Shown piece by piece: positions 18,094-52,374 of a stretch of 64,000 nucleotides of DNA. Under the pieces are notes generated by a model. It was not told where the DNA came from and ran no database searches. It worked only from the letters and a program-made list of their open reading frames with translations. Position numbers and translations under genes: made by a program. The stretch comes from a phage: the NCBI GenBank assembly GCA_025677605.1, contig GCA_025677605.1_4110.1. One strand, 5' to 3'. How positions within the stretch are numbered: the stretch's first letter is position 1; the number at the start of each line of letters is the position of its first letter.

Positions 18094-18094
18094 T

Positions 18095-34415: not shown

Positions 34416-34682
34416 TCAATTAAATTTAGGATGTATTTCAATGTAGTCACAATAAGGAAAATATTCAATATAACGCGTAGTGATTGGATGTAACGGATCG
34501 GACCATACACCGTCACCCTCATAGCGTGCTATTGGGCCTTTTAAGTACTTTTGTTGTTTCCTTGACCAGTATATGGATTGATAGACTACACCAACGGCAG
34601 GAACAACGAGCGGGAGCATAGAGTGATCTAATACAACGGATTGATAATTTTTATTATAGCGATATGTTGTTTTCTTTTTCAT
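34416..34682 (-). CDS. hypothetical protein (paralog of 34076..34333)
   Basis: 88 aa; GDGVWSDPLHPI matches GNGEWFDPNNPI in neighbour. Confidence 0.55.
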   Translation of the reverse strand: MKKKTTYRYNKNYQSVVLDHSMLPLVVPAVGVVYQSIYWSRKQQKYLKGPIARYEGDGVWSDPLHPITTRYIEYFPYCDYIEIHPKFN

Positions 34683-36757: not shown

Positions 36758-36800
36758 AGATACACTTATGCACCCTATGGGTCAGTGAGTTATCTCTCAA
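36758..36800 (-). repeat. conserved noncoding element, copy 2
   Basis: atgcaccctatgggtcag then terminator-like hairpin 36816-36846. Confidence 0.45.
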
Positions 36801-36854
36801 TGACTATATAATAGCAAAGGGACTGACTGGAGTCAATCCCTTTTTTAATCTTTT

Positions 36855-38383: not shown

Positions 38384-38779
38384 TTAGATAACCTGGCGGC
38401 GTTTACTGTATACGGTAACACGGTTTCCCTTACGGTCATGACGGATCTCTCGTTTGTTGCGAATCAGTTCACTTGGACGCTTCAGGTTTACCAGGTGATC
38501 CGCGTGAGTCCATGCATTCGAATTTACCTGTACTTTAATATCAGAACCAGCGATAAATTCATCTTGAGCGTTAAGTACTGCTGACAGTTCATCAGCTTTC
38601 TTCTGTTCTGCTGCTGTCAGTACTGGCTCCGGTGAATTCACAATATCAGAGATTTCTTTGAACTGTACGGCCCAGCGTTGACCTTTCGGTGCGGTCGTGC
38701 CCATGTCTTTAAATGCTGCTCCTTCCTCGCGTGCAACAATACGGGCAGCTTCACGGGTAGCGTAGAATTTAGTAATCAT
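38384..38779 (-). CDS. hypothetical protein (paralog of 50198..50464)
   Basis: FATRExAR...FKDMG...RWAV and C-terminal RHDRKGNRVTVYS shared with 50198 gene; start at MITKFY. Confidence 0.55.
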   Translation of the reverse strand: MITKFYATREAARIVAREEGAAFKDMGTTAPKGQRWAVQFKEISDIVNSPEPVLTAAEQKKADELSAVLNAQDEFIAGSDIKVQVNSNAWTHADHLVNLKRPSELIRNKREIRHDRKGNRVTVYSKRRQVI

Positions 38780-38874
38780 GGTATACATCCTATTAGTTAA
38801 GTTAGTACTACAAGTTAGAGTCTATTATAAAGTACTATCTGGGCAATGTCAAATAGTACTTTAAATGGATTCTA

Positions 38875-39198
38875 TTACATATCTTTCTTACGTTTTACAT
38901 CGTTGTAGCGAACTGTGATTTCTTTGTTGATCTCTTTCTCAATGTGGTGAATAACTTTTTCTTTCGGGTTGAAACCTATAACCGTTTCTTTAATGATCTC
39001 CAAGCCCGTGTATTCGCCTTGTGTACCGTAACCGTAAGTAAAGGTTTCATGTCCCAGGTCTTCCCAGCGGTCGCCAATCAACGCAGACACGTAGCAAGAG
39101 TGGTAAGTATTGCCGTGTGAATCAGTCCACCGATTAACTTTAATGTCAAAGGATGTTACAATTTTCAGTTCTACTTTCTGGGTAAGGATCATAGCCAT
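38875..39198 (-). CDS. hypothetical protein (paralog of 44672..45016)
   Basis: 107 aa; GNTY...YGYG...DVKRKKD shared. Confidence 0.55.
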   Translation of the reverse strand: MAMILTQKVELKIVTSFDIKVNRWTDSHGNTYHSCYVSALIGDRWEDLGHETFTYGYGTQGEYTGLEIIKETVIGFNPKEKVIHHIEKEINKEITVRYNDVKRKKDM

Positions 39199-39286
39199 TT
39201 TTATTTCTCTCTTTTAGTTAGGAGGGGAACCGTTTCCCCTCACTCGATGTAAACTATTATACAGTACTAAGATACTTTGTCAATAC

Positions 39287-39469
39287 TTATTTTTTGGAAA
39301 GTTTACGCATTAATTCTACGCTTTCTTGTGAACGTTTTGCTACCTGGCAATCTGCATGGGCAGTAAACATTTTTGTATAGTCTGACGCTTTGCCACCGAA
39401 CCGAGCGGCACGTTCACGGGCACTTGGAACTAATACAATTTCTTTCTTACAGATAGTGCACTTAGCCAT
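39287..39469 (-). CDS. small Cys-rich protein (possible zinc ribbon)
   Basis: 60 aa; MAKCTICKK...HADCQ; paralog of 45392..45535. Confidence 0.5.
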   Translation of the reverse strand: MAKCTICKKEIVLVPSARERAARFGGKASDYTKMFTAHADCQVAKRSQESVELMRKLSKK

Positions 39470-39556
39470 TTTTATTTCTCTCTTTTAGTTAGGAGGGGAA
39501 CCATTCCCCTCACTTGATGTAAACTATTATACAGTACTAAGATACTTTGTCAATAC

Positions 39557-39832
39557 TTAAGTATTGTAAATGTCGTGAATAGTGATAAAGTTTTTACGAC
39601 CGTAAACCTGTAAATCAGTATCAATGTAGTGCTTATCAAGTACATCCTCGACGCTTAACGCGGTGTCGTGAATATCTTCATAGAATTGAGGATCTACAAT
39701 CTTGCTTAAGTCATCCGGCGTTAACTTATCGTTAAGCCATTGAACCGCCTGGATATCTGCTTCACGTTTCCAGTCTTGCAGGTTAGTAGTCAGTACTTGC
39801 TCGATTTCGTTAGCTGTCAGTAGAATCCGCAT
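39557..39832 (-). CDS. hypothetical protein
   Basis: 91 aa; ATG 39830-39832. Confidence 0.5.
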   Translation of the reverse strand: MRILLTANEIEQVLTTNLQDWKREADIQAVQWLNDKLTPDDLSKIVDPQFYEDIHDTALSVEDVLDKHYIDTDLQVYGRKNFITIHDIYNT

Positions 39833-39864
39833 TTTATGTTTCCTTATCAGTAGTTGATGTAAGT

Positions 39865-39892
39865 ATTATACTCGTTTACTTTCTATTGTCAA
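39865..39892 (-). promoter_or_regulatory. sigma70-like promoter (proximal, P2)
   Basis: minus strand TTGACA, 16 nt spacer, TATAAT. Confidence 0.5.
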
Positions 39893-39900
39893 ACTATTTT

Positions 39901-39972
39901 ATCAGGGGAGTTTTTCGTATGTCTTACTCCTGGACTACTTAACGGGGTTACTTGTTTCATTCCCCGTCCTGA
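39901..39972 (-). other. conserved three-stem structured RNA element (leader or small RNA), copy A
   Basis: outer stem ATCAGG/CCTGAT enclosing hairpins GGAGT/ACTCC and ACGGGG/CCCCGT; near-identical copy at 49947-50021. Confidence 0.5.
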
Positions 39973-39980
39973 TGTAAAAC

Positions 39981-40008
39981 ATTATACTTGATTCTAAGTA
40001 CAATGCAA
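39981..40008 (-). promoter_or_regulatory. sigma70-like promoter (distal, P1) reading into structured element
   Basis: minus strand TTGCAT, 16 nt spacer, TATAAT. Confidence 0.5.
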
Positions 40009-40054
40009 GTACTTTTTTAAAAATAGTTTTCAGTACTAGCCACCAGCAAACAAT

Positions 40055-40095
40055 AGATACATTTATGCACCCGGTGGGCTAGTTTTTGTCTATGC
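40055..40095 (-). repeat. conserved noncoding element, copy 3
   Basis: atgcacccggtgggctag; hairpin 40107-40136. Confidence 0.45.
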
Positions 40096-40147
40096 ATATA
40101 TAATAGCAAAGGGACTGACCGGAGTCAATCCCTTTTTTCAATTTATT

Positions 40148-40297
40148 TTATGCCTCGCGAGGGTTGCGATATGTGATAGCGTTCGGGTACATTTGTTTTA
40201 AGTTATTCCACGCCTGGTTAACACTGTATCCGCTGGACCGTATCAGTTGATGCATACCTTTACCCAAAAACGTAACTTCGAAAATGTATTCTTTCAT
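40148..40297 (-). CDS. hypothetical small protein (below ORF-track cutoff)
   Basis: 49 aa MKEYIFEVTFLGKGMHQ...; ATGA overlap with upstream ORF. Confidence 0.35.
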   Translation of the reverse strand: MKEYIFEVTFLGKGMHQLIRSSGYSVNQAWNNLKQMYPNAITYRNPREA

Positions 40298-40467
40298 GCT
40301 ACGGCCCCCTTGTCGGCTTTACCTTTACGCCAGGACGTTACTAATTGTTCGCGTTGCCATAAGTCGAGTGATACAAAAAGTTTTGCGGTATCACCCTTCG
40401 GATATTCGCCAGTAGTACCCATCCGATAAAACAAATCTTTCAGTACTGACAATTCTACATGGATCAT
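40294..40467 (-). CDS. hypothetical small protein (below ORF-track cutoff)
   Basis: 57 aa MIHVELSVLKDLFYR...; RBS aggag 9 nt upstream. Confidence 0.4.
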   Translation of the reverse strand: MIHVELSVLKDLFYRMGTTGEYPKGDTAKLFVSLDLWQREQLVTSWRKGKADKGAVA

Positions 40468-40468
40468 T

Positions 40469-40558
40469 TTAGATAACTCCTGCTTTGCTTAAGTAAACTA
40501 ATACGGCCTGTACTGCCATAATGATTGCAATTACTACTATGAACGGATTCATGTGCAT
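40469..40558 (-). CDS. possible hydrophobic mini-peptide
   Basis: 29 aa MHMNPFIVVIAIIMAVQAVLVYL...; single predicted helix. Confidence 0.25.
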   Translation of the reverse strand: MHMNPFIVVIAIIMAVQAVLVYLSKAGVI

Positions 40559-40645
40559 AACTGTTACCCTTATATGGTGGGGAGAAAACTTCTCCCCTTG
40601 ATGTAATTAATTATACAGTACTGTGATACTTTGTCAAATACTTTT

Positions 40646-40858
40646 TTAATCTTTCAGCCAATGATCTTGGATGAATTTTTCACCGAAGCCTTGCTGCATG
40701 GATTGTAACAGGCGTTCACGGTGTGCGGCGGCAAACTGCTCAGTACTATGCGTTACACCTGGTTGATATCTGGATTCACCATTGGGGGCGATGTATTGTA
40801 CATCCCACGGTTTAGCGTTAGTATCAGACCATTTACGAACGATTAGTTGACCTTGCAT
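40646..40858 (-). CDS. hypothetical small protein
   Basis: start moved to MQGQLIVRKW (ATG 40856-40858); ORF-track extension is the reverse of the 5' hairpin. Confidence 0.5.
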   Translation of the reverse strand: MQGQLIVRKWSDTNAKPWDVQYIAPNGESRYQPGVTHSTEQFAAAHRERLLQSMQQGFGEKFIQDHWLKD

Positions 40859-40944
40859 TTTTCTTTCCTCAGTACTGGGGAGAATCATTTCTCCCCTTCA
40901 TGTAACTTATTATACAGTACTATAATCTATTGTCTAGTACTTTT

Positions 40945-41139
40945 TTAAAGTTTATGTATCAGTTCTTTATCTAAGCGATAGCGTACATTATTAATAGTAA
41001 CGGCATTGTTTTTAATGCTACGCTGTACAGGTCCACCAGCAATAACAAACGTTGCCTTATTACCCCGAACAATGATAGCACTTCCTGGATTGCCGTATTC
41101 ATCTTGTACTAAAATACTTGATAAGTTTTCCATTTTCAT
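40945..41139 (-). CDS. hypothetical small protein
   Basis: 64 aa; RBS aagaggaa. Confidence 0.5.
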   Translation of the reverse strand: MKMENLSSILVQDEYGNPGSAIIVRGNKATFVIAGGPVQRSIKNNAVTINNVRYRLDKELIHKL

Positions 41140-41293
41140 TTCCTCTTAGTAGGGGAAGATGTTTCCCCTTCATGTAAAACATTATACACTATCTTTCAGT
41201 ACTGTCAATTACTTTTTAGTACTTATTTAAACGCTCTCAATCGCATTCTAACGAGCTAATCTATTTTGTAGTACTATCGGATAGGTATATACT

Positions 41294-41323
41294 AAAAAGC
41301 CCACCAGCGTTAACCAGTGGGCT
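41294..41323 (-). terminator. rho-independent terminator
   Basis: AGCCCAC...GTGGGCT hairpin followed by T-run on minus strand. Confidence 0.5.
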
Positions 41324-41329
41324 ATAATC

Positions 41330-41473
41330 TTACATCTTGCGGATAATCTTAACAGTATCTTTCACCGATTTACCGTCTTGCTGGCATTGTTCGATCATTG
41401 CGTATTGTTCTGCGGTCAGATCTTCGCCAGTTTTTGCCAGTACTGCTTCGATGAATGAATCCAGTGCGATCAT
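41330..41473 (-). CDS. hypothetical small protein (below ORF-track cutoff)
   Basis: 47 aa MIALDSFIEAVLAKTGEDL... Confidence 0.35.
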   Translation of the reverse strand: MIALDSFIEAVLAKTGEDLTAEQYAMIEQCQQDGKSVKDTVKIIRKM

Positions 41474-41572
41474 TTTGTTTCTCTCTTAGGTTAAGTTAAC
41501 TACTGTTTATAAAACTTATTATACAGTACTATCAAACTATGTCAATATCTTTAATAGTACTGGTAATATATT

Positions 41573-41752
41573 TTAGCGGTAGTCGTCGTATGCTTTATTC
41601 ACCTGGCGAATGTAACTTTCAAAGGCTTCGTCTACCGTTTCATACTCCCGAACATAATCACCATAGGAAACTACATACATCCCTTTTTGATCTTCAAACG
41701 TCATGATGATAGAATCCAGGCCGATGATTTCAGTTTTTGCGATGATAGCCAT
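41573..41752 (-). CDS. hypothetical small protein (MAII family)
   Basis: start moved to MAIIAKTEII with RBS aaggaa; paralog of 45097..45309 with the same promoter sequence upstream. Confidence 0.5.
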   Translation of the reverse strand: MAIIAKTEIIGLDSIIMTFEDQKGMYVVSYGDYVREYETVDEAFESYIRQVNKAYDDYR

Positions 41753-41834
41753 TTTTAATTCCTTAGTAGTGTAGTTGATAAAATCTATTATGCCAGTACT
41801 ATCAATCTTTGTCAATAGTACTGTGATAATATTT

Positions 41835-42047
41835 TTAATCGATAATGGTTAATGTAAAGTTATAATCACCGCATCGATATAGCACGTTATTCCCAAATGT
41901 TCCAACCAATCGCACATCACACAAAACGCCAGTTTTTTCTTTTACTTCCTTGATACTTGTAACTCCTGTAATATCTTTATTAAAGTATTCATGGTCTGAA
42001 AATAAAACTTGTTTTGCATTTTTCAATTTCGACCGGATATTAGCCAT
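41835..42047 (-). CDS. hypothetical small protein
   Basis: 70 aa; ATG 42045-42047. Confidence 0.5.
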   Translation of the reverse strand: MANIRSKLKNAKQVLFSDHEYFNKDITGVTSIKEVKEKTGVLCDVRLVGTFGNNVLYRCGDYNFTLTIID

Positions 42048-42142
42048 TTTGTTTTCTCTCTCTGTTAGTGGGGAGAACTATTCTCCCCTTGATGTAAACT
42101 ATTATACAGTACTATAATCTATTGTCAAACTATTTTTTAATA

Positions 42143-42484
42143 TTATTCGAAATCTTCTGGACCGGACTGATAATCATCTTCACCGTATGCACTTTCTAAC
42201 TTCTCGCCAGTGCAATCATCAGTTAGTGAGTCATCCTCATAGTTCACGTCTACGCCCGTGATGTAAAACTGGCTATCGTATGGATCATTGAAATTAATTT
42301 TCTGAATGTTTACAATAACTGTATTGATGCCCAGGACACCGCCATCAGCCGTTACAAAGTACTGATAGTTTTCACATCCACCACTATTGAAACCGTAATT
42401 GATTTCGGCCCGACCATCATTTAAACGCAGTGCCTGAGCGATGAATTCGTTTTCAAAGTTAGATTGAGCAATTGCAATAGTCAT
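42143..42484 (-). CDS. hypothetical acidic protein
   Basis: 113 aa; ATG 42482-42484. Confidence 0.5.
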   Translation of the reverse strand: MTIAIAQSNFENEFIAQALRLNDGRAEINYGFNSGGCENYQYFVTADGGVLGINTVIVNIQKINFNDPYDSQFYITGVDVNYEDDSLTDDCTGEKLESAYGEDDYQSGPEDFE

Positions 42485-42583
42485 GATTCGTTTCCTTATT
42501 ACCAGGGGAAACGGTTTCCCCTTGCTATGTAAAACATTATACTTGATTCTAAGTACAATGCAAGTACTTTTTGCAAAATACTT

Positions 42584-42766
42584 TTAATCCCTTTGATACT
42601 CACATAACGCCATATCATACGCAATTGACGCTGATTTGAAATCATCGTGTCGCTCAATCTCTTTCATGTCAACATAGATGATCCATAGGTTTACGTCTTC
42701 CTGGCGTATGATAACGGCAGGTTTACCGATGATATGTGATGCCGCTAGTTCGATTGGATTAAACAT
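42584..42766 (-). CDS. hypothetical small protein
   Basis: 60 aa; RBS aaggag. Confidence 0.5.
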   Translation of the reverse strand: MFNPIELAASHIIGKPAVIIRQEDVNLWIIYVDMKEIERHDDFKSASIAYDMALCEYQRD

Positions 42767-42799
42767 TGTAGTACTCCTTATTAGATTGATATATTTTAT

Positions 42800-42840
42800 T
42801 TACACTTCCGCACCCTGTGGGCTAGTGAGCTATCTCTCAA
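42800..42840 (-). repeat. conserved noncoding element, copy 4
   Basis: ccgcaccctgtgggctag; hairpin 42859-42886. Confidence 0.45.
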
Positions 42841-43108
42841 TGAATATATAATAGCAAAATGGCTGACCGAAGTCAACCACTTTTTTCATTTATTTTTAGC
42901 TTTTAGAATCGCCGCTTTTCGCGTCATGCCTTGCTTGATGTACTCCTTTACTTTCGCTTTACGTGCTTTCGCTTTATCTGCTTTCGTTTTAGGAGTACTG
43001 TAAATTAAACCGTTAGGATTCATTTAAATCACCATAAAGAATAGATAGGTTACTAACAATGCCGCGATCAATGCACCGATCACCGCCGAACTGTAATAAG
43101 CCAATGAT

Positions 43109-43261
43109 TTCATTTTTTAGCCTGGAAGTAATGTTTAATTTGTGCGGCGGTCAATGCACAATTACGCAGGAAGTTTTCTGTATAACTGCGACGAGTACTG
43201 AAAGAAAATTGACCTTTGCCGTTGCCGATAGTAACATCAAACCGAGCATTATATTGTTTCA
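43109..43261 (-). CDS. hypothetical small protein (below ORF-track cutoff)
   Basis: 50 aa MKQYNARFDVTIGNGKGQF...; followed by two further mini-ORFs 43023..43112 and 42885..43022. Confidence 0.3.
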
Positions 43262-43575
43262 TTTTGATTCTCCTAGTATCAGGGGAGAACCATTTCCCCC
43301 CCCTCTATGTAAAACATTATACAGTACTAAAAACTAATTGCAAGTACTATTTTTTAGATTTACGCAAACTTTCTACCATCTCAGGAGTAAGGCCCGGCGG
43401 GTAGGAAACCACTTCATCAACGAAACGTAAAGGGAATACCCCAGCGAAAGGTGAACATGCTTTCTTAGTATTACTCTTTTTTGATGCTTTCATTTCATAT
43501 TCCTTAATTAGTGGGAAGTACTATTTCTCCCCTTCATGTAAAACATTATACAGTACTAAAAACTAATTGCAAGTA

Positions 43576-43818
43576 TTATTTTAAACTTTGTGCGACTAAT
43601 TTCGCACGGTCAATCATATACTGCCATTTTTTGATCTCTTCTGGTAGAAAACGATATTCACCAATAACAATAGTGATACACTTTTCAGCCTGGTCAATGT
43701 ATGTAGTGTCAATCTCGACTTGAACGGGTACACGTTCGCCGTAATCAGTGCCAGGGATAATACAATCATTATCATAAGTAACAGTAGTAGCAGTGTCTTT
43801 GATTAAAATTGTTTCCAT
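43576..43818 (-). CDS. hypothetical small protein
   Basis: 80 aa; ATG 43816-43818. Confidence 0.5.
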   Translation of the reverse strand: METILIKDTATTVTYDNDCIIPGTDYGERVPVQVEIDTTYIDQAEKCITIVIGEYRFLPEEIKKWQYMIDRAKLVAQSLK

Positions 43819-43888
43819 TATACTTTCCTCGTTAGGTGTAAGGGGAAAAAGTTTCCCCTCTATGTAAACAATTATACAGTACTGAAAA

Positions 43889-44098
43889 CTAATTGCAAGT
43901 ATTATTTTCTAAAAAATGATTGTATGCTGCATCAACCACTCTTTCGATAACATACGCCAACGGCACGTATCCAACTACATGACTACAATAGAAAGGACTA
44001 CGATTAGAATCATCGTATGCAAATACTTTACCAGGTACGGCATCAATCACATACATATTAACCTTTAAGATGTCGATCTTATCCTGTACAGTAAGCAT
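43889..44098 (-). CDS. hypothetical small protein
   Basis: start moved to MLTVQDK (ATG 44096-44098). Confidence 0.45.
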   Translation of the reverse strand: MLTVQDKIDILKVNMYVIDAVPGKVFAYDDSNRSPFYCSHVVGYVPLAYVIERVVDAAYNHFLENNTCN

Positions 44099-44099
44099 A

Positions 44100-44270
44100 T
44101 TACGCCGCCTTATCAGTACTAGCAACCGGACGGATACGGGCCATCGCCTGGGCTTGTTCTACGCTGTATTGTTCGTATAGTCTGCATTCTTCCGGTGTAG
44201 GAATAGCATCAATACGTTTCATTGGTTTAATGATGCTTTCAACTTCATTCAGTACTTGATTAACGTTCAT
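44100..44270 (-). CDS. hypothetical small protein (below ORF-track cutoff)
   Basis: 56 aa MNVNQVLNEVESIIKP... Confidence 0.35.
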   Translation of the reverse strand: MNVNQVLNEVESIIKPMKRIDAIPTPEECRLYEQYSVEQAQAMARIRPVASTDKAA

Positions 44271-44321
44271 GGTATTATCCTCAATATTAGCGGCCTAAAT
44301 CAACCGCTAACGATGTTTTGA

Positions 44322-44591
44322 TTAATAGGTGTATGGTTGACGCTCAAACAATGAATAGACGTTATACGCCCCGCTAATGGGCTTCGCTGGCAAATCAATT
44401 TTATATTGTTCACGCTTAAAGATAATAAAACGGCAATTGTTTTTTACATCAAAATTGATTGAACGTTCCAGGAGTTTTCCATCGTGTACAAATACAAGAT
44501 AACCGCTTGGTACTTGTTTTGTAGTACTGGTTGCAACCATAGACCGACGAACATGCGTACCTGCATCGATTAAAGTACTGATATTTTTCAT
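44322..44591 (-). CDS. hypothetical protein
   Basis: 89 aa; ATG 44589-44591. Confidence 0.5.
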   Translation of the reverse strand: MKNISTLIDAGTHVRRSMVATSTTKQVPSGYLVFVHDGKLLERSINFDVKNNCRFIIFKREQYKIDLPAKPISGAYNVYSLFERQPYTY

Positions 44592-44671
44592 TATACTATC
44601 CTCTTAAGTTAATTTAATTTCTTTCCCCTATGCAGACACTATATCAAAGTATCTGCATAAAGTAAAGCTAA

Positions 44672-45016
44672 TTAAAGATCTTTTTTGCGTTTAACATCAG
44701 TTACCGAACTGTAAACAGTGATATTATTGTCACGGCAAAAACGGGAAAGATAAGAACCGCGTAAAAACTCTTTACCTTCCATATCAATAACCTTGCTAAA
44801 TTCATCCATTGCTACGGTGTCAAAGTGATCCCCGTATCCATATTGGAACGGCACGTTTACTACTTCAATAAAATTACCATCAATTTCTACGTCTACACTT
44901 AAAGAGAAATAAGTGTTACCATATGAAGCCTGGAACCAACGCCGAGCGGCAATATGTACAACTTCAACAGAAGACAGGTTGATATTTTGTGCTGTGATAG
45001 TGTTGATGTTAGCCAT
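44672..45016 (-). CDS. hypothetical protein (paralog of 38875..39198)
   Basis: 114 aa; ...YGYG...DVKRKKDL. Confidence 0.55.
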   Translation of the reverse strand: MANINTITAQNINLSSVEVVHIAARRWFQASYGNTYFSLSVDVEIDGNFIEVVNVPFQYGYGDHFDTVAMDEFSKVIDMEGKEFLRGSYLSRFCRDNNITVYSSVTDVKRKKDL

Positions 45017-45096
45017 TTTTAGTTTCCTCAGTTGTTTTGATAAAATCTATTATGCCAGTACTATCAATCTATGTCAATAGTACTGTGATAATAATT

Positions 45097-45309
45097 TTAC
45101 TTACTTTCTTTCGATGCTTTATGTTGTGCAACTGCCATTACTACATCAGCACGAACAAAGTTTTTAACCGTGTCAGTGTAATAATTGATTGCATCGTCTA
45201 TATCTGCGAACGTCCGATACATACCGCACCAAGATACTTTATAACCTGCTTTCACTTGTTCCAGCTTAACCAGTGATTTGTTTACTTTGATTTTAGTAAT
45301 GATAGCCAT
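45097..45309 (-). CDS. hypothetical small protein (MAII family)
   Basis: 70 aa MAIITKIKV... Confidence 0.5.
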   Translation of the reverse strand: MAIITKIKVNKSLVKLEQVKAGYKVSWCGMYRTFADIDDAINYYTDTVKNFVRADVVMAVAQHKASKESK

Positions 45310-45391
45310 TTTTTGTTTCCTCTTAGTTGTCTTGATAAAATCTATTATGCCAGTACTATCAAACTATGTCAATAGTACTGTGATAATATTT

Positions 45392-45535
45392 TTACTTACT
45401 TTTTGCTTTCTTTGCTGCTTCCACCTGGTCGGCCCACTCTTTACCCCATACTTGAGCATTATAGTGATACTGACAAAGAGCAACGCCCCGCTTCAAACCA
45501 GTAATAGATTTTTTACCACATTGACAAGTTTTCAT
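45392..45535 (-). CDS. small Cys-rich protein (possible zinc ribbon; below ORF-track cutoff)
   Basis: 47 aa MKTCQCGKKSITGLKRGVALCQYH...; paralog of 39287..39469. Confidence 0.4.
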   Translation of the reverse strand: MKTCQCGKKSITGLKRGVALCQYHYNAQVWGKEWADQVEAAKKAKSK

Positions 45536-45622
45536 TTTAGTTTCCTCTTAGTGGGGAGAACCATTTTCTCCCCTTGATGTAATGTATTATACTTTATCTG
45601 ATTTACTTTGCAAGTACTTTTT

Positions 45623-45850
45623 TTAATTTAATTCATCCAGGCAAAGGATACGCTCAACGCCCAAATCAGTTAAACTAATAGACGGCACTTGATAGGTTTC
45701 AACGTATTCTACACTCGCCCACTGACCGAACTCATTCACCGCCCAGGTATTCATTGCAAAATGTAATTCCGCACCTTTCTTATTAGTAATTACAGCAACA
45801 GTAGAAGAATTGCCAGTAGTACCAGATACGCGAGTGATTACGATAGCCAT
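45623..45850 (-). CDS. hypothetical small protein
   Basis: 75 aa; ATG 45848-45850. Confidence 0.5.
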   Translation of the reverse strand: MAIVITRVSGTTGNSSTVAVITNKKGAELHFAMNTWAVNEFGQWASVEYVETYQVPSISLTDLGVERILCLDELN

Positions 45851-45920
45851 TGTTTTGATTCCTATTCAGTAGTTGATGTATGTATTATCGCAGTACTTAA
45901 AACTATTGTCAAACTATTTT

Positions 45921-46073
45921 TTAAAGTTTATCAATGATTGATGCCGTTTCATTGATAGTCTTGCCGTGTTTTGCACACGCGATAACTGCTTTAAATTCCT
46001 TTGATGACCAATCTTTTTTACTGCATACTGACATTACTTGTAAAGTGAAACAATCCAGTTCATAAGTATTCAT
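45921..46073 (-). CDS. hypothetical small protein (below ORF-track cutoff)
   Basis: 50 aa MNTYELDCFTLQVMSVCSKK... Confidence 0.3.
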   Translation of the reverse strand: MNTYELDCFTLQVMSVCSKKDWSSKEFKAVIACAKHGKTINETASIIDKL

Positions 46074-46253
46074 CTTTATATCCTCAGTTAGTTAAGGTGT
46101 CTCGCCTTGATGAAATTAATTATACGCTAATCTCTTAATCGTGCAAGTACTTTTTATTAGTTTTTGCAAAATACTTTAAACGCCCGCAATCGCATTCTAA
46201 CGACCTTAACGCCACCAGCTAGGGCGATGCATCAGATAATCAGTTTAATGCGT

Positions 46254-46267
46254 TAGAATCGATTCTA
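46254..46267. promoter_or_regulatory. perfect 14-bp palindrome TAGAATCGATTCTA (candidate operator)
   Basis: seen directly; half-site ATCGCATTCTAACG recurs at about 41236 and 51443. Confidence 0.4.
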
Positions 46268-46299
46268 GGCGGTGCTGGGGGCATGGTAAACGATAAACA

Positions 46300-46327
46300 C
46301 AAAAAAGCCCACTGTTTAAGGTGGGCT
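46300..46327 (-). terminator. rho-independent terminator
   Basis: AGCCCAC-tgtttaag-GTGGGCT with T-run on minus strand, just downstream of the 46349 stop. Confidence 0.55.
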
Positions 46328-46348
46328 AGTGATTCAGTACTTTAATTG

Positions 46349-46831
46349 TTATGCTTCAACTTTGCGATGAGCTTCGATCCATTCCTCGCGAGTCAATCCG
46401 CTTTCTTTGATAGCATCCAGTACTACGGCAATGCAGTTACCGCGTACTGGTACAGTGTATTCCTCGCCATTATCCAGAACTACCGGCACGCGTTCCTGAA
46501 TCCATTTTTTAGCTTTTACTTCTGGCTTGTCTTCCCCGTATTTCGCTGCCAGGGCTTTACGTGCCATTTCGGTTACTACTTCCAGATCAAGCCCAGCGAC
46601 GGCGGCGTTAATATCTTCAATCGTTTTCTGCAATTCAGCTTCGCGTGCTGCCTTCTCAGCTTCAAGTGCCGCCGCTTTATTAGCTTGTAGTTCTTTCGCT
46701 TCGCTGTACGCAATGTTAAAATTGTTGCGTACTGCTTTCATGGTATCGCTATCCAGTTCAGCCAGGATCTCAGCCGCTACGTTAGTTTCATTTGCTACCA
46801 GTGCTTTGATGAATGATTTTACATTAGCCAT
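46349..46831 (-). CDS. hypothetical Ala/Glu-rich protein (locally higher GC)
   Basis: start at MANVKSF (ATG 46829-46831) behind RBS gaggaa; coiled-coil-like AAALEAEKAAREAELQK. Confidence 0.55.
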   Translation of the reverse strand: MANVKSFIKALVANETNVAAEILAELDSDTMKAVRNNFNIAYSEAKELQANKAAALEAEKAAREAELQKTIEDINAAVAGLDLEVVTEMARKALAAKYGEDKPEVKAKKWIQERVPVVLDNGEEYTVPVRGNCIAVVLDAIKESGLTREEWIEAHRKVEA

Positions 46832-46884
46832 TATATAATTCCTCAATTAAAGTTTAGTTTACGTTTATTAGTGTATCAAAGTTT

Positions 46885-46948
46885 TCTTGACGTGTCCAGT
46901 TTTTCGTTCGACTTACTGGCGGTCTACTTAGTGTTCCCCGTCTTGATG
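46885..46948 (-). other. structured RNA element, diverged copy C
   Basis: CCAGT/ACTGG hairpin and CCCCGTCTTGATG tail; promoter TTGACA, 16 nt spacer, TAGAAT at 46955-46982. Confidence 0.35.
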
Positions 46949-47030
46949 TAATACATTCTACGCTTTTCTTCGGTAATGTCAACTACTTTTTTAAAACTAT
47001 TTTCAAAGTATCTCAGTACTACACCACTAC

Positions 47031-47058
47031 AAAAAAAGCCCACTGTTTAAGGTGGGCT
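47031..47058 (-). terminator. rho-independent terminator
   Basis: same AGCCCAC...GTGGGCT hairpin as 46300-46327. Confidence 0.55.
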
Positions 47059-47075
47059 ATTGATTCAGTACTAGA

Positions 47076-47375
47076 TTATAAACAGTTAATTACTCCTGTG
47101 TGCGTTACTTTCTCAGTATCCATAACCGTGACCGAACCGCGTTTTTTCTTCGCATCATAATAAATTGTTGTGCTACCTTTCGCATCTTCTTCATGGAACG
47201 GGCCATTTTTAAATGCTTCTGGCTGTAATTCCAGATCCTTTAAAACAATCTCGCCAGTACTTTCATCGGTCATTGCTACGGTGCACTGAATGAATTTATC
47301 ACCAGGTACATCTAACGACGCATTAACAGCGAAAGAGGAAACAGATAAAGCCAGGGCGATGATTGCTACTTTCAT
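47076..47375 (-). CDS. putative secreted/periplasmic small protein
   Basis: 99 aa; signal peptide MKVAIIALALSVSSFAVNAS. Confidence 0.55.
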   Translation of the reverse strand: MKVAIIALALSVSSFAVNASLDVPGDKFIQCTVAMTDESTGEIVLKDLELQPEAFKNGPFHEEDAKGSTTIYYDAKKKRGSVTVMDTEKVTHTGVINCL

Positions 47376-47460
47376 TTGATTATCCTTAGTTACCAGGGGA
47401 ACCGTTCCCCCCCTTGCTATGTAAAATATTATACAGTACTAAAAACTAATTGCAAGTACT

Positions 47461-47697
47461 TTATGATTTTTTATAAAACATTTCGGCAGTGATATTTTTA
47501 CCCGTTGGTTGTACTTTATCCAGGATTTTTTGATGCCCGGACCGTCCAAATGAATATGATCCGTAAACCGTAAACCAGTAGTTACCCTCAGTGTTTACAT
47601 GTACAGCACAATAGGGAACGCCCCGCGATTCATCACTAGTAAAGTGTGCTACCGTTCCCGTTACATTCGAAGACGTTGATTTGATTTGTTCGACCAT
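47461..47697 (-). CDS. hypothetical small protein
   Basis: 78 aa; ATG 47695-47697. Confidence 0.5.
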   Translation of the reverse strand: MVEQIKSTSSNVTGTVAHFTSDESRGVPYCAVHVNTEGNYWFTVYGSYSFGRSGHQKILDKVQPTGKNITAEMFYKKS

Positions 47698-47805
47698 TTT
47701 CTTATTCCTTAGTTACCAGGGGAACCGCTCCCCCTATGCAAAACATTATACGCGTTTAAAAACTATTAGCAAGTATTTTAATAAAAAGTATTTGAAAAAT
47801 AGTTC

Positions 47806-47834
47806 TTGACAACTGCATCCAATACTGGCATAAT
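47806..47834 (+). promoter_or_regulatory. plus-strand sigma70-like promoter
   Basis: TTGACA, 17 nt spacer, CATAAT on plus strand in an otherwise minus-strand region. Confidence 0.45.
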
Positions 47835-47840
47835 TACTAC

Positions 47841-47947
47841 ATAAAGACAAAACAGTCTCTAACCCACCGGGTGCATAGATCCGTCTATTAAATGATTCAG
47901 TACTGAAAAAAGAAAGGGGATCAATTGATCCCCTCGTTGTTATTTTG
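47841..47947 (+). ncRNA. candidate small RNA containing the conserved CCCACCGGGTGC element
   Basis: promoter upstream; palindromic hairpin GGGGATCAATTGATCCCC at 47916-47933 followed by T-rich tract; no ORF. Confidence 0.25.
47906..47933 (-). terminator. rho-independent terminator (bidirectional)
   Basis: GGGGATCAATTGATCCCC with T-run on minus strand after the 47940 stop. Confidence 0.5.
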
Positions 47948-48161
47948 TAAGGTATAAACAGAAGTCACCTTTATTTGCTACGCCGCCAGTGTAACGCGAT
48001 GAATAGTTAGAAACGTCCTGGACTTCTGCTATTACCAGTGTATCATCATTCAATTCGTCGCAGAAGCAAACGGCTGGATCTTTTACGCCGATATTGTCGG
48101 CATGTTCCCGCATAGATTTAACCAGTGCTTCAAGTTGGGAAAGGGTAGTAATGTTAGCCAT
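47940..48161 (-). CDS. hypothetical small protein
   Basis: start moved to MANITTLSQ (ATG 48159-48161). Confidence 0.5.
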   Translation of the reverse strand: MANITTLSQLEALVKSMREHADNIGVKDPAVCFCDELNDDTLVIAEVQDVSNYSSRYTGGVANKGDFCLYLTK

Positions 48162-48246
48162 TTTATTTTCCTCATTACCAGGGAGAACCATTTCTCCCCT
48201 CTATGTAAACCATTATACAGTACTAAAAACTAATTGCAAGTACTTT

Positions 48247-48450
48247 TTAATTTAATTGCTTAAAAACATACTCAAAGACACGACGCACATCATTGATCAT
48301 CGCCTGGCGGTTAGCAGGTAACGCATCAGGATCGCCACTATCCCAGGCATTGATAAAACTCCCCAAATCATGATAGATTTTATTCTGTAAGCCGATTAAC
48401 TGCAATTCTTTTTCTTCAAGCTCTTTGATACGTTCAATTAAATCACTCAT
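48247..48450 (-). CDS. hypothetical small protein
   Basis: start moved to MSDLIERIKELEE with RBS aagga. Confidence 0.45.
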   Translation of the reverse strand: MSDLIERIKELEEKELQLIGLQNKIYHDLGSFINAWDSGDPDALPANRQAMINDVRRVFEYVFKQLN

Positions 48451-48467
48451 TATATAATCCTTAGTAC

Positions 48468-48752
48468 TTAACTGTAAGATCCGCAACGGTCGCAGTAGTG
48501 CCCGTCCTCGTCATCGTCAACGAATTGACCGACGAAATGATCTACTTTCGCTTTCAGGTTATTATAATCGTTTTCTACTTCCTTTAAACGCTTCTGGTAG
48601 TATTCCAGTGCTTTAAGATATGCCGCATCAGCAGTTTTCTCCTGCATAGCTAAATTCATGCCACGCGTTTCATCGTACAGCCAAAAACCATCGGTGCACT
48701 GGCTAATAGATAATGACTTGCTTAGTACTGTATAGTTAATTACTTTGCTCAT
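48468..48752 (-). CDS. hypothetical protein
   Basis: 94 aa; C-terminal HYCDRCGSYS. Confidence 0.5.
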   Translation of the reverse strand: MSKVINYTVLSKSLSISQCTDGFWLYDETRGMNLAMQEKTADAAYLKALEYYQKRLKEVENDYNNLKAKVDHFVGQFVDDDEDGHYCDRCGSYS

Positions 48753-48837
48753 TAGATAATCCTCAGTAAAGGCGGGAACTATTCCCCGCCTCGATATAAA
48801 GTATTATACGTTAATCTAACTACAATGCAAGTACTTT

Positions 48838-49110
48838 TTAGTTTTTTAATTCTTTTACTGCATCAGGTGCGACAGAACCATCAATGTATTGAACATCGTT
48901 TTCAACTTCACGGGCGGCATCATTCAGCAGATCAAAATTAAATTCCATTTCTTCCAGATCATCAAAATCAGGCTCATAACCATTAATTGTTGAATAAGTC
49001 CAAGTACCTTTTTCATAAGTCACGACACTTACATCAGGGAAGAAATCTTGCACATGATCCATTGCATCCCGAACCAGTTGATGTGCAGTTGTGATATTTA
49101 AAGTTTTCAT
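48838..49110 (-). CDS. hypothetical protein
   Basis: 90 aa; ATG 49108-49110. Confidence 0.5.
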   Translation of the reverse strand: MKTLNITTAHQLVRDAMDHVQDFFPDVSVVTYEKGTWTYSTINGYEPDFDDLEEMEFNFDLLNDAAREVENDVQYIDGSVAPDAVKELKN

Positions 49111-49203
49111 TTTGTTACCCTTTTAGTGTGAGCGGGGAACCACTCCCCGCCTCGATATAAAGTATTATACGCTTTTAAACTTAGTATGCAAGTACTTTTT
49201 AAA

Positions 49204-49878
49204 TTAATATTCGATTGATTCTACTACGCCATCAATAACATTGAATTGATATTCGTTACCCTCAATCAGTGCCGTAATGTTTTCAGTAGTGAATTGATCC
49301 TCATATGCATTCTCTAAATCACGGTACAACTTGCGGGATAATTCACGAATAGTTTCAGTGAGTAGTTCCTCAAGCTCATTAACTAACGCTTCTTGTTTTG
49401 CGGTTAAATCAGTGTAAGCCGATTCAATGTACCCGCTTACAGTGTTTTCATGCGAGTAGTTGGAGTGAGAACGCTTTACACTCATTGCCAAATCATCTTC
49501 ATTCAGCAGGTGACGGATTGAGCGATACTTAGTTAATGCTCTAACCTTGCGTAAAAACTTCTCAGCGTCAACGTGGTCAGTACTAATTGATGCACCGTCA
49601 CCCTGCGACCAAAAACCACTGAATTGTATTTCAGCGTCATTAATGCCATATTCCGGTAGTACTGTTTCTTTATAGTATTCAATTTCACTTTCAGAAAAAT
49701 AATCGTCGTTTAAGTTTTTTTCACGTTCCCGAACCAGTTCGATAGCTGACGTTTGTTGTTCTGCGTTCAATTCAGAAAAATCCATAACGAAAGTAGTATT
49801 AGTGACAGTTTTCGCTTTGCAACCCTCATTCAATTCAGAAAAATCCATAACGAAAGTAGTAGTAGTGATAGTTTTCAT
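49204..49878 (-). CDS. hypothetical protein with N-terminal tandem duplication
   Basis: 224 aa; 21-aa unit TTFVMDFSELN repeated twice from a 63-bp direct DNA repeat near 49743-49870. Confidence 0.55.
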   Translation of the reverse strand: MKTITTTTFVMDFSELNEGCKAKTVTNTTFVMDFSELNAEQQTSAIELVREREKNLNDDYFSESEIEYYKETVLPEYGINDAEIQFSGFWSQGDGASISTDHVDAEKFLRKVRALTKYRSIRHLLNEDDLAMSVKRSHSNYSHENTVSGYIESAYTDLTAKQEALVNELEELLTETIRELSRKLYRDLENAYEDQFTTENITALIEGNEYQFNVIDGVVESIEY

Positions 49879-49946
49879 TTTGTAACTCTCATTCAGTAGT
49901 TGATGTAAGTATTATACGCTTTTAAAAACAATTGTCAAACTATTTT

Positions 49947-50021
49947 ATCAGGGGAGTTTTTCGTGTGCCTTACTCCTGGGCTACTTAACGGGGAGTTACT
50001 TATTTCGTTCCCCGTCCTGAT
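49947..50021 (-). other. conserved three-stem structured RNA element, copy B
   Basis: near-identical to 39901-39972; flanked by P1 (TTGCAA, 16 nt spacer, TATAAT) and P2 (TTGACA, 16 nt spacer, TATAAT). Confidence 0.5.
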
Positions 50022-50109
50022 GTAAAACATTATACGCCTTTAAACATAGTTTGCAAGTACTTTTTATCAAATAGTTTTCAGTACTGGCATTGTACTTAAT
50101 CACTTTACT

Positions 50110-50145
50110 ATAGATACACTTCCGCACCCTATGGGCTATCGCCTT
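50110..50145 (-). repeat. conserved noncoding element, copy 5
   Basis: ccgcaccctatgggctat. Confidence 0.45.
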
Positions 50146-50197
50146 GTGTCCGGCTTGTAAGTATTATCTCACTAAGCCGGATAATGGTCAAGTACTT

Positions 50198-50464
50198 TTA
50201 TTCAAGTACTGCAATCTTTTTAGTACTGTACACGGTAACACGGTTTCCCTTGCGGTCGTGCTTTATTTCTACCACTCGACGCGATACACTATCAGGACTT
50301 TTTAACGCCGCTAACCAGTACTGAATTGATCGGGCTGTACTTTGCTTTACTACGGCCCAACGTTTACCCCTGGCTGATTGTACGCCCATATCTTTAAACG
50401 TTGCACCGTCAACCTTTGCCGCTTGCCGAGCTTGTTCACGCGTCGCAAAGTATATAATATTCAT
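50198..50464 (-). CDS. hypothetical protein (paralog of 38384..38779)
   Basis: start moved to MNIIYFATRE; 3' end about 33 nt near-identical to 38407-38440. Confidence 0.55.
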   Translation of the reverse strand: MNIIYFATREQARQAAKVDGATFKDMGVQSARGKRWAVVKQSTARSIQYWLAALKSPDSVSRRVVEIKHDRKGNRVTVYSTKKIAVLE

Positions 50465-50546
50465 GCTGTTACCCCTATCGTTGTTGTATAAAAGAAATCT
50501 ATTATAAAGTACTATCACCGTGCAATAGTACTTTTAATCTATTCTC

Positions 50547-52044: not shown

Positions 52045-52118
52045 ACACGATCCCCTGATGTAACATTTATTTGATACTATTATATCATAAAAATATGTTC
52101 CATCTCATAAAATAGTAC

Positions 52119-52363: not shown

Positions 52364-52374
52364 TATTTCATCAA

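What the first reader, a model, noticed from the sequence alone, without database searches (positions are those of the whole stretch)
38384..50464. Dispersed paralog pairs within the cassette region, one with a near-identical 3' end
38384..38779 and 50198..50464 share FATRExAR...FKDMG...RWAV and an identical C-terminal RHDRKGNRVTVYS; about 33 nt at the 3' end (38407-38440 versus 50231-50263) are nearly identical, suggesting gene conversion. Other pairs: 38875..39198 with 44672..45016 (YGYG...DVKRKKD), 34076..34333 with 34416..34682, and 41573..41752 with 45097..45309, the last pair sharing identical promoter sequence.
Basis: seen in the sequence. Interest (0 to 1): 0.4.

Follow-up and report, generated by a model that had tools for sequence, protein, structure and literature searches.

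The report
Old paralog pairs, jumbo-phage early genes
Four pairs of small, function-unknown early genes in the terminal-repeat region of a jumbo E. coli phage are old, diverged paralogs moved around by module swapping, and the near-identical 3' stretch in one pair is mainly a conserved peptide motif, perhaps sharpened by a short recombination patch.

Summary
The window comes from an Asteriusvirus-type jumbo coliphage (PBECO4/121Q/G17 group). The 33-51 kb stretch matches the ~21 kb direct terminal repeat of its relatives. It holds about 50 small minus-strand genes, most with their own sigma-70 promoter.

All four pairs are real homologs. Pairs A, B and C are clear by BLASTP and share a PHROG family. 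Pair D shows only by profile comparison.

None is a recent duplicate: protein identity is 29-35%. A1 and A2 both have orthologs in all ten compared relatives that carry a typical A2. B2, D2 and C2 are variable, and C2 has no ortholog in 50,697 phage records.

The 37-nt 3' match in pair A is real (34/37). It encodes HDRKGNRVTVYS, the turn of a predicted C-terminal beta-hairpin conserved across the family. Peptide conservation alone predicts 27.8/36 identical bases, and nine relatives show 25-28/36. The window has 33/36 (P about 0.01) and phage A4 has 32/36.

So gene conversion is possible but not proven. Short-patch exchange at this motif is clear in phage EJP2. A B2 allele swap also ends exactly at that family's C-terminal motif.

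Overall this is an ordinary feature of a phage hyperplastic region, and the proteins' function remains unknown.

The parts
38384..38779 (-). A1, 131-aa member of family A (phrog_8127), long form with an acidic linker
   Evidence: Orthologs at 82-99% aa identity in 10 related phages.
50198..50464 (-). A2, 88-aa member of family A (phrog_8127), short form lacking the linker
   Evidence: Orthologs at 85-93% aa identity in the same 10 phages.
38405..38440 (-). A1 copy of the 36-nt stretch encoding HDRKGNRVTVYS
   Evidence: Lies at the turn and second strand of the predicted C-terminal beta-hairpin.
50225..50260 (-). A2 copy of the same 36-nt stretch, 33/36 identical to the A1 copy
38780..38874 (-). 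Promoter region of A1, subtype AAAGTACTATTTGACA..GATAGTACTTTATAAT, without a GC stem-loop
   Evidence: 12/12 consensus promoter at 38852-38824. Its best upstream partner among 47 genes is A2.
50465..50546 (-). Promoter region of A2, same subtype as that of A1
38875..39198 (-). B1, 107-aa member of family B (phrog_6246), conserved in all relatives
44672..45016 (-). B2, 114-aa member of family B. In five of ten relatives this slot holds a different allele (B2', 34% identical).
44672..44697 (-). Last 26 coding nt of B2 (..VKRKKDL*). From here on the sequence is 100% identical to G17, whose gene is otherwise unrelated in sequence, so this is the 3' junction of the allele swap.
34076..34333 (-). 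C1, 85-aa member of family C (phrog_34861), present in all relatives examined
34416..34682 (-). C2, 88-aa diverged member of family C, with no ortholog in 50,697 phage records
34350..34734 (-). 385-nt segment (C2 plus a promoter and stem-loop copy) that replaces about 60 nt in A4, G17 and EC22.5-2
41573..41752 (-). D1, 59 aa (phrog_9374)
45097..45309 (-). D2, 70 aa (phrog_35559), remote homolog of D1, present in 4 of 10 relatives
41753..41837 (-). D-type promoter cassette upstream of D1 (TTGACA-17-CATAAT with TG, no stem-loop)
45017..45099 (-). D-type promoter cassette upstream of B2
45310..45394 (-). D-type promoter cassette upstream of D2
45006..45118 (-). Downstream copy of the 118-nt direct repeat (90% identical) that flanks D2. 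It covers the last codons of D2, the cassette and the first codons of B2.
45299..45416 (-). Upstream copy of the direct repeat. It covers the last codons of gene 45392-45535, the cassette and the first codons of D2.

Best explanation
The region is the early-gene, hyperplastic part of an Asteriusvirus jumbo coliphage. In relatives it lies inside the ~21 kb direct terminal repeat. It consists of about 50 short genes, most behind their own strong sigma-70 promoter.

The four 'pairs' are members of four small, phage-restricted protein families of unknown function that duplicated long ago. Since then the copies have been kept, lost or replaced as gene-sized modules.

Exchange happens by homologous recombination between co-infecting or ancestral phages at short conserved sequences. 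On the 5' side this is the promoter cassette. On the 3' side, in at least families A and B, it is the short conserved C-terminal coding motif together with the sequence downstream of it.

The near-identical 3' stretch of pair A is first of all a peptide under strong purifying selection: the DRKGN turn and flanking strands of a predicted basic beta-hairpin. The extra identity seen in this phage and in A4 is most simply a short recombination patch laid onto that motif, but this last step is inferred, not shown.

Shown: homology, age, orthology, presence/absence pattern, junction positions, and the EJP2 patch. Inferred: the recombination mechanism, early expression, and the cause of the excess identity.
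For: Identity of the phage and region:
- 92% nucleotide identity to vB_EcoM_E9.1 and other Asteriusvirus records.
- The G17 record starts at window position ~32.3 kb.
- The genes lie below position 20,993 in fEgEco12, whose 20,993-bp terminal repeat was confirmed by restriction digests (PMC13070987).

Promoters: 13 perfect 12/12 consensus sites, all on the minus strand, and 29 cassette copies.

Homology of the pairs.

Age of the duplications:
- 29-35% protein identity.
- Identical codons at only 42-59% of the aligned positions that share a degenerate amino acid.
- A1 and A2 each have orthologs in 10 relatives.

Module turnover:
- About 20 of 52 genes are absent or replaced in at least one relative.
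- C2 is unique to this phage.
- D2 is flanked by a 118-nt direct repeat and is present in 4 of 10 relatives.
- The B2/B2' swap is bounded by the shared promoter cassette and by the last 26 coding nt.
- D1 and D2 homologs also occur on ~150 kb contigs from records named as other E. coli phages, such as vB_EcoM_UP17, vB_EcoM_3A1_SA_NWU and A7_1.

Motif:
- Conserved across the wider family, including members only 42-48% identical.
- It is the hairpin turn in both AlphaFold models.
- Its codons vary freely among relatives.
- Expected identity 27.8/36, observed 25-28 in nine relatives and 33 here.
- The EJP2 patch.
Against: - No transcription data, so the promoters are consensus matches only.
- No function or fold match for any family.
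- A test for concerted evolution of promoter cassettes was negative. Within-genome identity equals between-genome identity, so cassettes look conserved rather than actively homogenised.
- B1/B2 and C1/C2 do not share a promoter subtype, so the duplicated unit is not always 'promoter plus gene'.
- The terminal-repeat status is inferred from relatives, not measured for this phage.
- Only 11 genomes were compared in detail.
Confidence: 0.8

Rival explanations
1. A recent short-tract gene conversion between A1 and A2 inside this phage lineage (window plus A4) produced the near-identical 3' stretch. It is compatible with the best explanation as an added step.
For: - 33/36 and 32/36 identical in the window and A4, against 25-28/36 in nine relatives.
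- P = 0.01 under a same-peptide, independent-codon null.
- 9/12 identical codons in the motif against 10/26 elsewhere (P = 0.039).
- All lineage-specific states match the other paralog.
- Patch-wise exchange at the same place is documented in EJP2.
Against: - P values are uncorrected for post-hoc choice of motif and of lineage; about 0.05 after allowing for roughly 5 independent lineages.
- The GTA/GTG difference persists between the supposedly converted sites, so one continuous tract does not fit.
- CGT and AGT are also present in the long-form gene P0028 in the A2 slot, so they may be ancestral.
- A1's GTT ACC also occurs in JNE01, whose own A2 has GTG ACC.
- CGT->AGT creates an AGTACT site, which may be selected for in its own right.
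Confidence: 0.4
2. The excess identity is chance. A strongly conserved peptide, limited codon choice and retention of ancestral codons (plus selection for an AGTACT site) happen to give 33/36 in this lineage, with no exchange between the paralogs.
For: - The baseline expected from the peptide alone is already 27.8/36.
- Only about 5 extra matches need explaining.
- Several of them are polymorphic states also found in other alleles.
- One creates AGTACT.
Against: - P = 0.01 for 33 or more of 36.
- Two related genomes are both in the upper tail.
- Synonymous sites of the motif are otherwise as scrambled as the rest of the gene in nine relatives.
Confidence: 0.4
3. The shared 3' stretch is a nucleotide-level functional element (RNA structure, protein-binding site or terminator part) conserved as DNA or RNA rather than as protein.
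For: A weak terminator-like hairpin is called on the opposite strand at 50239-50260.
Against: - In nine relatives the same peptide is encoded with 8-11 nucleotide differences between A1 and A2, and synonymous sites vary freely within each gene.
- No Rfam match in 32-54 kb.
Confidence: 0.03
4. The pairs arose by recent duplication within this phage genome.
For: C1 and C2 are adjacent. D2 is flanked by a 118-nt direct repeat.
Against: - 29-35% protein identity and scrambled synonymous sites in all pairs.
- A1, A2, B1, C1 and D1 have slot-specific orthologs across the genus.
- C2 is only 35% identical to C1 and its relatives, so it was acquired as an already diverged copy.
Confidence: 0.03

Closest known systems
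PeSL cassettes (promoter-early stem-loop) and modular shuffling in hyperplastic regions of T4-type phages (Arbiol et al. 2010, PMC2839356; Comeau et al. 2014, PMC4122927)
   Same: - Dense array of short, mostly orphan genes, each preceded by a repeated cassette with a strong sigma-70-like promoter, an AT-rich upstream part and a GGGG..CCCC stem-loop.
- Insertions, deletions and replacements between close relatives are bounded by the cassettes.
   Different: - The host phage is a Rak2-like jumbo phage, not a T4-type phage, and the region is the direct terminal repeat.
- The stem-loop lies downstream of the -10 box, in the 5' untranslated region, and has no T-run. In PeSLs it lies just upstream of the promoter and acts as a terminator (PMC4122927).
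- The cassettes of pairs A and D have no stem-loop at all.
- Some junctions lie in conserved 3' coding motifs rather than in cassettes.
- Mini-circles were not tested.
Paralogous gene families of Rak2-like jumbo phages (for example 22 paralogous ORFs reported for phage CBB, PMC5259590)
   Same: Small hypothetical genes with detectable mutual homology inside one jumbo-phage genome. This window also holds much larger families at 25-31 kb and 53.7-57.4 kb.
   Different: The pairs here are dispersed singletons within the terminal repeat, each behind its own promoter, rather than tandem arrays. Their turnover among relatives is documented here.
Recombination at short conserved motifs inside phage genes, such as the glycine-rich motifs of T4-superfamily gp38 adhesins (Trojet et al. 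2011, PMC3157838). This is recalled from my own knowledge; the paper was only listed, not read.
   Same: Short conserved coding motifs flank diverged segments and coincide with mosaic junctions.
   Different: Here the motif is at the extreme C-terminus of tiny early proteins, and the exchanged unit is the whole gene or a 60-nt patch, not a hypervariable loop.

Membership tests
PeSL (promoter-early stem-loop) cassette system | Repeated intergenic motif containing a strong sigma-70-like promoter with an AT-rich upstream region | tested here: met
   29 copies of a 57-nt repeat. 13 perfect and about 45 near-consensus promoters, almost all on the coding strand, 97 found against 61.5 expected. Sequences listed.
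PeSL (promoter-early stem-loop) cassette system | [quoted passage not shown] | tested here: not met
   The GC stem-loop lies between the -10 box and the Shine-Dalgarno sequence and is not followed by a T-run. The PeSL definition is from PMC4122927. The cassettes of A1, A2, D1, D2 and B2 lack the stem-loop.
PeSL (promoter-early stem-loop) cassette system | Indels and replacements of orphan genes between close relatives are bounded by the cassettes | tested here: met
   C2 insertion, D2 unit flanked by a 118-nt repeat, B2/B2' swap with a shared upstream cassette, presence/absence matrix.
PeSL (promoter-early stem-loop) cassette system | Excision of cassette-flanked genes as mini-circles | not testable with these tools
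   Needs PCR or sequencing of infected-cell or virion DNA.
PeSL (promoter-early stem-loop) cassette system | Occurs in T4-type (Tevenvirinae-like) genomes | tested here: not met
   Best matches are Asteriusvirus jumbo phages.
Gene conversion between paralogs (pair A, 3' end) | A tract of high nucleotide identity bounded by diverged flanks | tested here: met
   34/37 identical, against about 64% identity in the N-terminal homologous part and no similarity immediately upstream or downstream.
Gene conversion between paralogs (pair A, 3' end) | Excess identity at synonymous sites beyond what protein conservation gives | tested here: inconclusive
   33/36 against 27.8 +/- 2.1 expected, P = 0.01. 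9/12 against 10/26 identical codons, P = 0.039. Neither is corrected for post-hoc selection.
Gene conversion between paralogs (pair A, 3' end) | Lineage-specific homogenisation: paralogs more alike within the genome than in relatives | tested here: met
   Window 33/36 and A4 32/36, nine other genomes 25-28/36.
Gene conversion between paralogs (pair A, 3' end) | Donor, recipient and tract ends resolved by ancestral states | tested here: inconclusive
   The outgroup-like gene P0028 already has CGT and AGT. GTA/GTG stays different inside the putative tract.
PHROG families 8127 (A), 6246 (B), 34861 (C) | Significant full-length match of both members to the same family profile | tested here: met
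   A: 1e-34 and 2e-25. B: 2e-36 and 1e-42. C: 2e-56 and 2e-12.
Single family for D1 and D2 | Both members match one family profile, or their profiles match each other | tested here: inconclusive
   Different PHROGs (9374 and 35559) with reciprocal weak cross-hits, E 0.04 and 0.1. hhalign probability 89%, E 2e-6, with shallow profiles (Neff about 1.5).

The most novel reading that the evidence does not exclude
The short conserved C-terminal motifs of these small early-gene families (HDRKGNRVTVYS in family A, VKRKKD in family B) act, together with the promoter cassettes, as the two recombination anchors of exchangeable gene modules. Diverged alleles and paralogs would then be swapped or patched between co-infecting jumbo phages at defined intragenic points. 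This would be a coding-sequence counterpart of the PeSL mechanism. The hugely over-represented AGTACT palindrome that marks the promoters and many gene ends might take part in it.
Probability: 0.2. Interest if true: 0.5.

Novelty: new member of a known kind. Interest (0 to 1): 0.27.

Why it matters
It places the finding correctly: these are not fresh duplications and not a clear case of gene conversion. They are old small-gene families in the fast-turnover early region of a jumbo phage.

The useful by-products are:
- A presence/absence map showing which members are stable (A1, A2, B1, C1, D1) and which are swappable (B2, D2, C2).
- Two clean mosaic junctions, the EJP2 patch and the B2/B2' swap. 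They show that short conserved 3' coding motifs, and not only promoter cassettes, mark exchange points.

That is a modest extension of the PeSL picture to Rak2-like jumbo phages. It gives concrete targets for crosses or long-read population sequencing. What any of these proteins does remains unknown.

Tried and rejected
- Pfam, NCBIfam and PDB sequence searches for all eight proteins gave nothing above threshold.
- Rfam found nothing in 32-54 kb.
- IMG/VR held only 121Q itself.
- An exact-sequence look-up of A2 found no record.
- I first concluded that pair D was not homologous (no BLASTP hit, different PHROGs). I reversed this after the shuffle test, reciprocal PHROG cross-hits and hhalign.
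- I first read the EJP2 gene as an A1/A2 chimera produced by crossover. Comparison with P0028 showed instead a 60-nt patch in an otherwise long-form gene, and the wider family shows that 'SKRK' is probably ancestral.
- The test for concerted evolution of promoter cassettes was negative.
- Full-text searches found no paper describing promoter cassettes or AGTACT enrichment in Asteriusvirus. That is absence from this library only.

Full report
**What the window is.** Megablast of 38-51 kb against 50,697 phage records finds 181 records, mostly Escherichia jumbo phages of 348-386 kb (PBECO4, 121Q, G17, E9.1, A4 and others). The best match covers 83% of the query at 92% identity. Records fetched are classified as Asteriusvirus.

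The G17 record begins at the equivalent of window position ~32.3 kb and runs collinearly to ~56.8 kb. In phages whose records carry both terminal repeats, family A gives four places instead of two. In fEgEco12 the homologs lie at record positions 1,988-19,191. That is inside the 20,993-bp direct terminal repeat confirmed by restriction digests (PMC13070987). Sharanji has a 20,668-bp repeat (PMC11895373). The 'cassette region' therefore corresponds to the terminal repeat of this phage group. For this phage itself that is an inference.

**Anatomy.** Between 32.4 and 52 kb there are about 52 short genes (45-224 aa), all on the minus strand.
- A 57-nt repeat occurs 29 times.
- On the coding strand it reads: AT-rich, AGTAC-TTGCAA/TTGACA, a 16-17 nt spacer ending in AGTACTG, TATAAT, about 10 nt, a GC stem-loop (GGGGAGAA..TTCTCCCC), Shine-Dalgarno, ATG.
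- A consensus scan finds 13 perfect 12/12 promoters, all on the minus strand, and 97 sites against 61.5 expected.
- Unlike PeSLs of T4-type phages, where the stem-loop lies just upstream of the promoter and terminates upstream transcription (PMC2839356, PMC4122927), the stem-loop here is downstream of the -10 box and has no T-run.

**Checking the four pairs.**

| Pair | Coordinates | BLASTP (all window ORFs) | Shuffle z | PHROG |
|---|---|---|---|---|
| C | 34076-34333 / 34416-34682 | E 4e-16 | 26.6 | 34861 for both |
| A | 38384-38779 / 50198-50464 | E 1e-15 | 24 | 8127 for both |
| B | 38875-39198 / 44672-45016 | E 2e-7 | 16.5 | 6246 for both |
| D | 41573-41752 / 45097-45309 | no hit | 6.8 | 9374 and 35559 |

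In the all-against-all BLASTP, these three were the only significant pairs of real genes inside 33-51 kb. One further hit joins two plus-strand ORFs that merely overlie the repeated cassette. The rest of the window holds much larger families.

Pair D shows up in more sensitive tests. Only 4 of 1000 shuffles reach its score without the first six residues. Each protein has the other's PHROG among its three best hits out of 38,880 (E 0.04 and 0.1). Alignments of 21 and 16 homologs compare at 89% probability, E 2e-6, over 48 columns. I treat D as a probable remote pair.

The shared promoter of D is real but occurs three times (upstream of D1, D2 and B2). Its ~60-nt core has two mismatches.

Self-BLASTN of 32-52.5 kb gives 218 hits. 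Only five include at least 25 coding nt in both copies:
- the pair A 3' stretch (38404-38440 / 50224-50260, 37 nt, 92%, E 3e-8);
- the weak 67% similarity of the pair A 5' halves and promoters;
- a 118-nt repeat flanking D2 (45006-45118 / 45299-45416, 90%), which includes the last codons of the upstream gene and the first codons of the downstream one;
- a tandem repeat inside gene 49204-49878;
- one cassette hit that laps into gene ends.

So nucleotide identity is overwhelmingly intergenic, and pair A is the one true coding exception.

**Age of the duplications.** Protein identities are 29-35%. Among aligned positions that share a degenerate amino acid, only 42-59% use the same codon.

In ten related genomes, A1 (82-99% aa) and A2 (85-93%) each have a slot-specific ortholog. 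A1 against A2 stays at 31-37% in every genome. B1, C1 and D1 are likewise near-universal (D1 is missing from TH47).

The other members vary:
- The B2 slot holds either B2 (window, A4, TH47, E9.1, phAPEC6) or a 34%-identical allele B2' (121Q, G17, EC22.5-2, WPEC5, Turkey3, JNE01).
- D2 is present in 4 of 10 relatives.
- C2 has no ortholog in any of the 50,697 records. All hits are to C1 at under 40% identity.

In all, about 20 of 52 genes are absent or replaced in at least one relative.

Homologs of D1 and D2 also sit on ~150 kb contigs from records named as other E. coli phages, such as vB_EcoM_UP17, vB_EcoM_3A1_SA_NWU and A7_1. The nucleotide search also hit Phapecoctavirus and Justusliebigvirus records.

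**How modules move.**
- C2 sits in a 385-nt segment that replaces about 60 nt in A4, G17 and EC22.5-2, and it brings a copy of the neighbouring stem-loop cassette.
- D2 is bracketed by the 118-nt direct repeat.
- The B2/B2' replacement has the same D-type promoter upstream. It becomes 100% identical from the last 26 coding nt (..ATGTTAAACGCAAAAAAGATCTTTAA, encoding VKRKKDL) onward, while the rest of the two genes is unrelated at nucleotide level.
- The promoters of A1 and A2 are of one special subtype without a stem-loop and are each other's best or second-best match among 47 upstream regions. D1, D2 and B2 form another subtype. B1/B2 and C1/C2 do not share promoters.
- Within-genome and between-genome identities of cassette pairs are equal, so I see no concerted evolution of cassettes.

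**The 3' stretch of pair A.** The shared peptide HDRKGNRVTVYS belongs to a C-terminal segment conserved across the whole family, including members only 42-48% identical.

AlphaFold models of A1 and A2 (pLDDT 70 and 75) give an N-terminal beta-alpha-beta-beta unit and a long C-terminal beta-hairpin whose turn is DRKGN. A2 simply lacks the low-confidence linker.

With the peptide fixed and codons drawn from local usage, 27.8 +/- 2.1 of 36 bases are expected to match. The chance of 33 or more is 0.01, and of 32 or more 0.036. Nine relatives show 25-28/36, the window 33/36 and A4 32/36. Identical codons are 9/12 in the motif against 10/26 elsewhere in the window genes (P = 0.039), and 2-5 of 9-11 in the relatives.

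Two conclusions follow:
- The bulk of the identity is protein conservation. A nucleotide-level element is excluded, because synonymous sites vary freely among relatives.
- The window/A4 lineage has about five more matches than expected.

The lineage-specific states (A2: GGC->GGA, CGC->CGT, CGT->AGT; A1: GTA ACA->GTT ACC) all point toward the other paralog, as a short conversion patch would.

Against that reading:
- GTA/GTG stays different in the middle.
- CGT and AGT are also found in the long-form gene P0028, so they may be ancestral.
- JNE01 shares A1's GTT ACC without matching its own A2.
- CGT->AGT creates an AGTACT site.
- The statistics are post hoc.

I put conversion at about 0.4.

**Exchange at this motif in a relative.** Phage EJP2 carries a 125-aa long-form gene in the A2 slot and a third, 34%-identical member in the A1 slot. 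Compared with a near-identical gene from assembly GCA_958319075.1 (P0028), EJP2 differs at 5 of the first 279 nt, at 19 of the next 60 nt, and at 0 of the last 39 nt. Inside the 60-nt patch EJP2 matches A2-type genes almost perfectly. The patch ends inside the motif, after ..AACCGC (Fisher P = 1e-12). Short-patch exchange between diverged family A genes at this spot is thus real, even if it is not proven for the window's own pair.

**Function.** No Pfam, NCBIfam or PDB sequence match and no fold match was found. Family A has 59 phage records, all Rak2-like jumbo phages. It has 54 cluster representatives among 1.84 billion proteins. From position and promoters these are most likely early, host-takeover-type proteins. 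This is inference from what is known of phage early regions.

**Verdict.** The gene-conversion interpretation is partly supported. The feature is an ordinary, if nicely documented, example of old paralog families and module exchange in a phage hyperplastic region.

Noticed in passing
whole window (for example 38804-38809, 38831-38836, 50222-50227); none at ~19.45-26.1 kb and 27.93-32.4 kb: The palindrome AGTACT occurs 269 times against 19.1 +/- 4.2 expected from dinucleotide shuffles. It is the most over-represented hexamer (observed/expected 13.5). It flanks the -35 box and precedes the -10 box in the promoters, but 45 of the 118 sites in 32.4-52 kb are inside genes. The related phage loci fetched here have 4.6-7.5 sites per kb. 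No paper mentioning it was found in the searchable library.
   Followed up: partly
29 copies between 33157 and 51339 (for example 48159-48252): The repeated promoter cassette has its GC stem-loop downstream of the -10 box, in the 5' untranslated region, without a T-run. In PeSLs of T4-type phages the stem-loop precedes the promoter and acts as a terminator. It might be an mRNA 5' stabiliser or a protein-binding site.
   Followed up: partly
33689-33784, 36762-36857, 40054-40149, 42802-42897, partial copy at 50104-50138: A second intergenic repeat family of about 100 nt (60-93% identical). It contains a 12-bp-stem hairpin (AAAGGGATTGACTCCGGTCAGTCCCTTT) that embeds a TTGACT..TATTAT promoter-like site, followed by a conserved CACCCnnTGGGC-type segment. 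No Rfam match.
   Followed up: no
52050-53750, especially 52588-52756, 53339-53393 and 53591-53651: A gene-free stretch of about 1.7 kb near the point where coding strand and GC skew switch. It has about 11-20 copies of an 8-bp periodic repeat (CCATCTAG-like) and other short tandem repeats. It could be an origin, a packaging site or a regulatory region of the terminal repeat.
   Followed up: no
34416-34682: C2 has no ortholog in 50,697 phage records. All hits are to the C1 family at under 40% identity, so this gene appears unique to the window phage among sequenced phages in that collection.
   Followed up: yes
L012 15344-15721 (phage EJP2) versus L015 1501-1878 (GCA_958319075.1): A clean 60-nt recombination patch: 19 differences in the patch against 5 in the other 318 nt. 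It makes the EJP2 long-form gene A2-like just before and into the HDRKGN motif.
   Followed up: yes
49766-49895, inside gene 49204-49878: A 63-nt tandem duplication at the 5' end of the gene (91% identical) repeats the peptide T(T/N)TTFVMDFSELN.
   Followed up: no
24.9-31.3 kb, 53.7-57.4 kb, 8.6-18.6 kb, 57.7-64 kb: Much larger paralog families than the four pairs: dozens of tandem ~60-85-aa genes (24.9-31.3 kb and 53.7-57.4 kb), a family of ~150-180-aa genes (8.6-18.6 kb), and 300-400-aa plus-strand genes with shared N-termini (57.7-64 kb).
   Followed up: no
41573-41752 and 45097-45309: Homologs of D1 and D2 (68-98% identical) also lie on ~145-153 kb contigs from records named as other E. 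coli phages (vB_EcoM_UP17, vB_EcoM_3A1_SA_NWU, A7_1). This indicates exchange of small early genes between different phage groups.
   Followed up: partly
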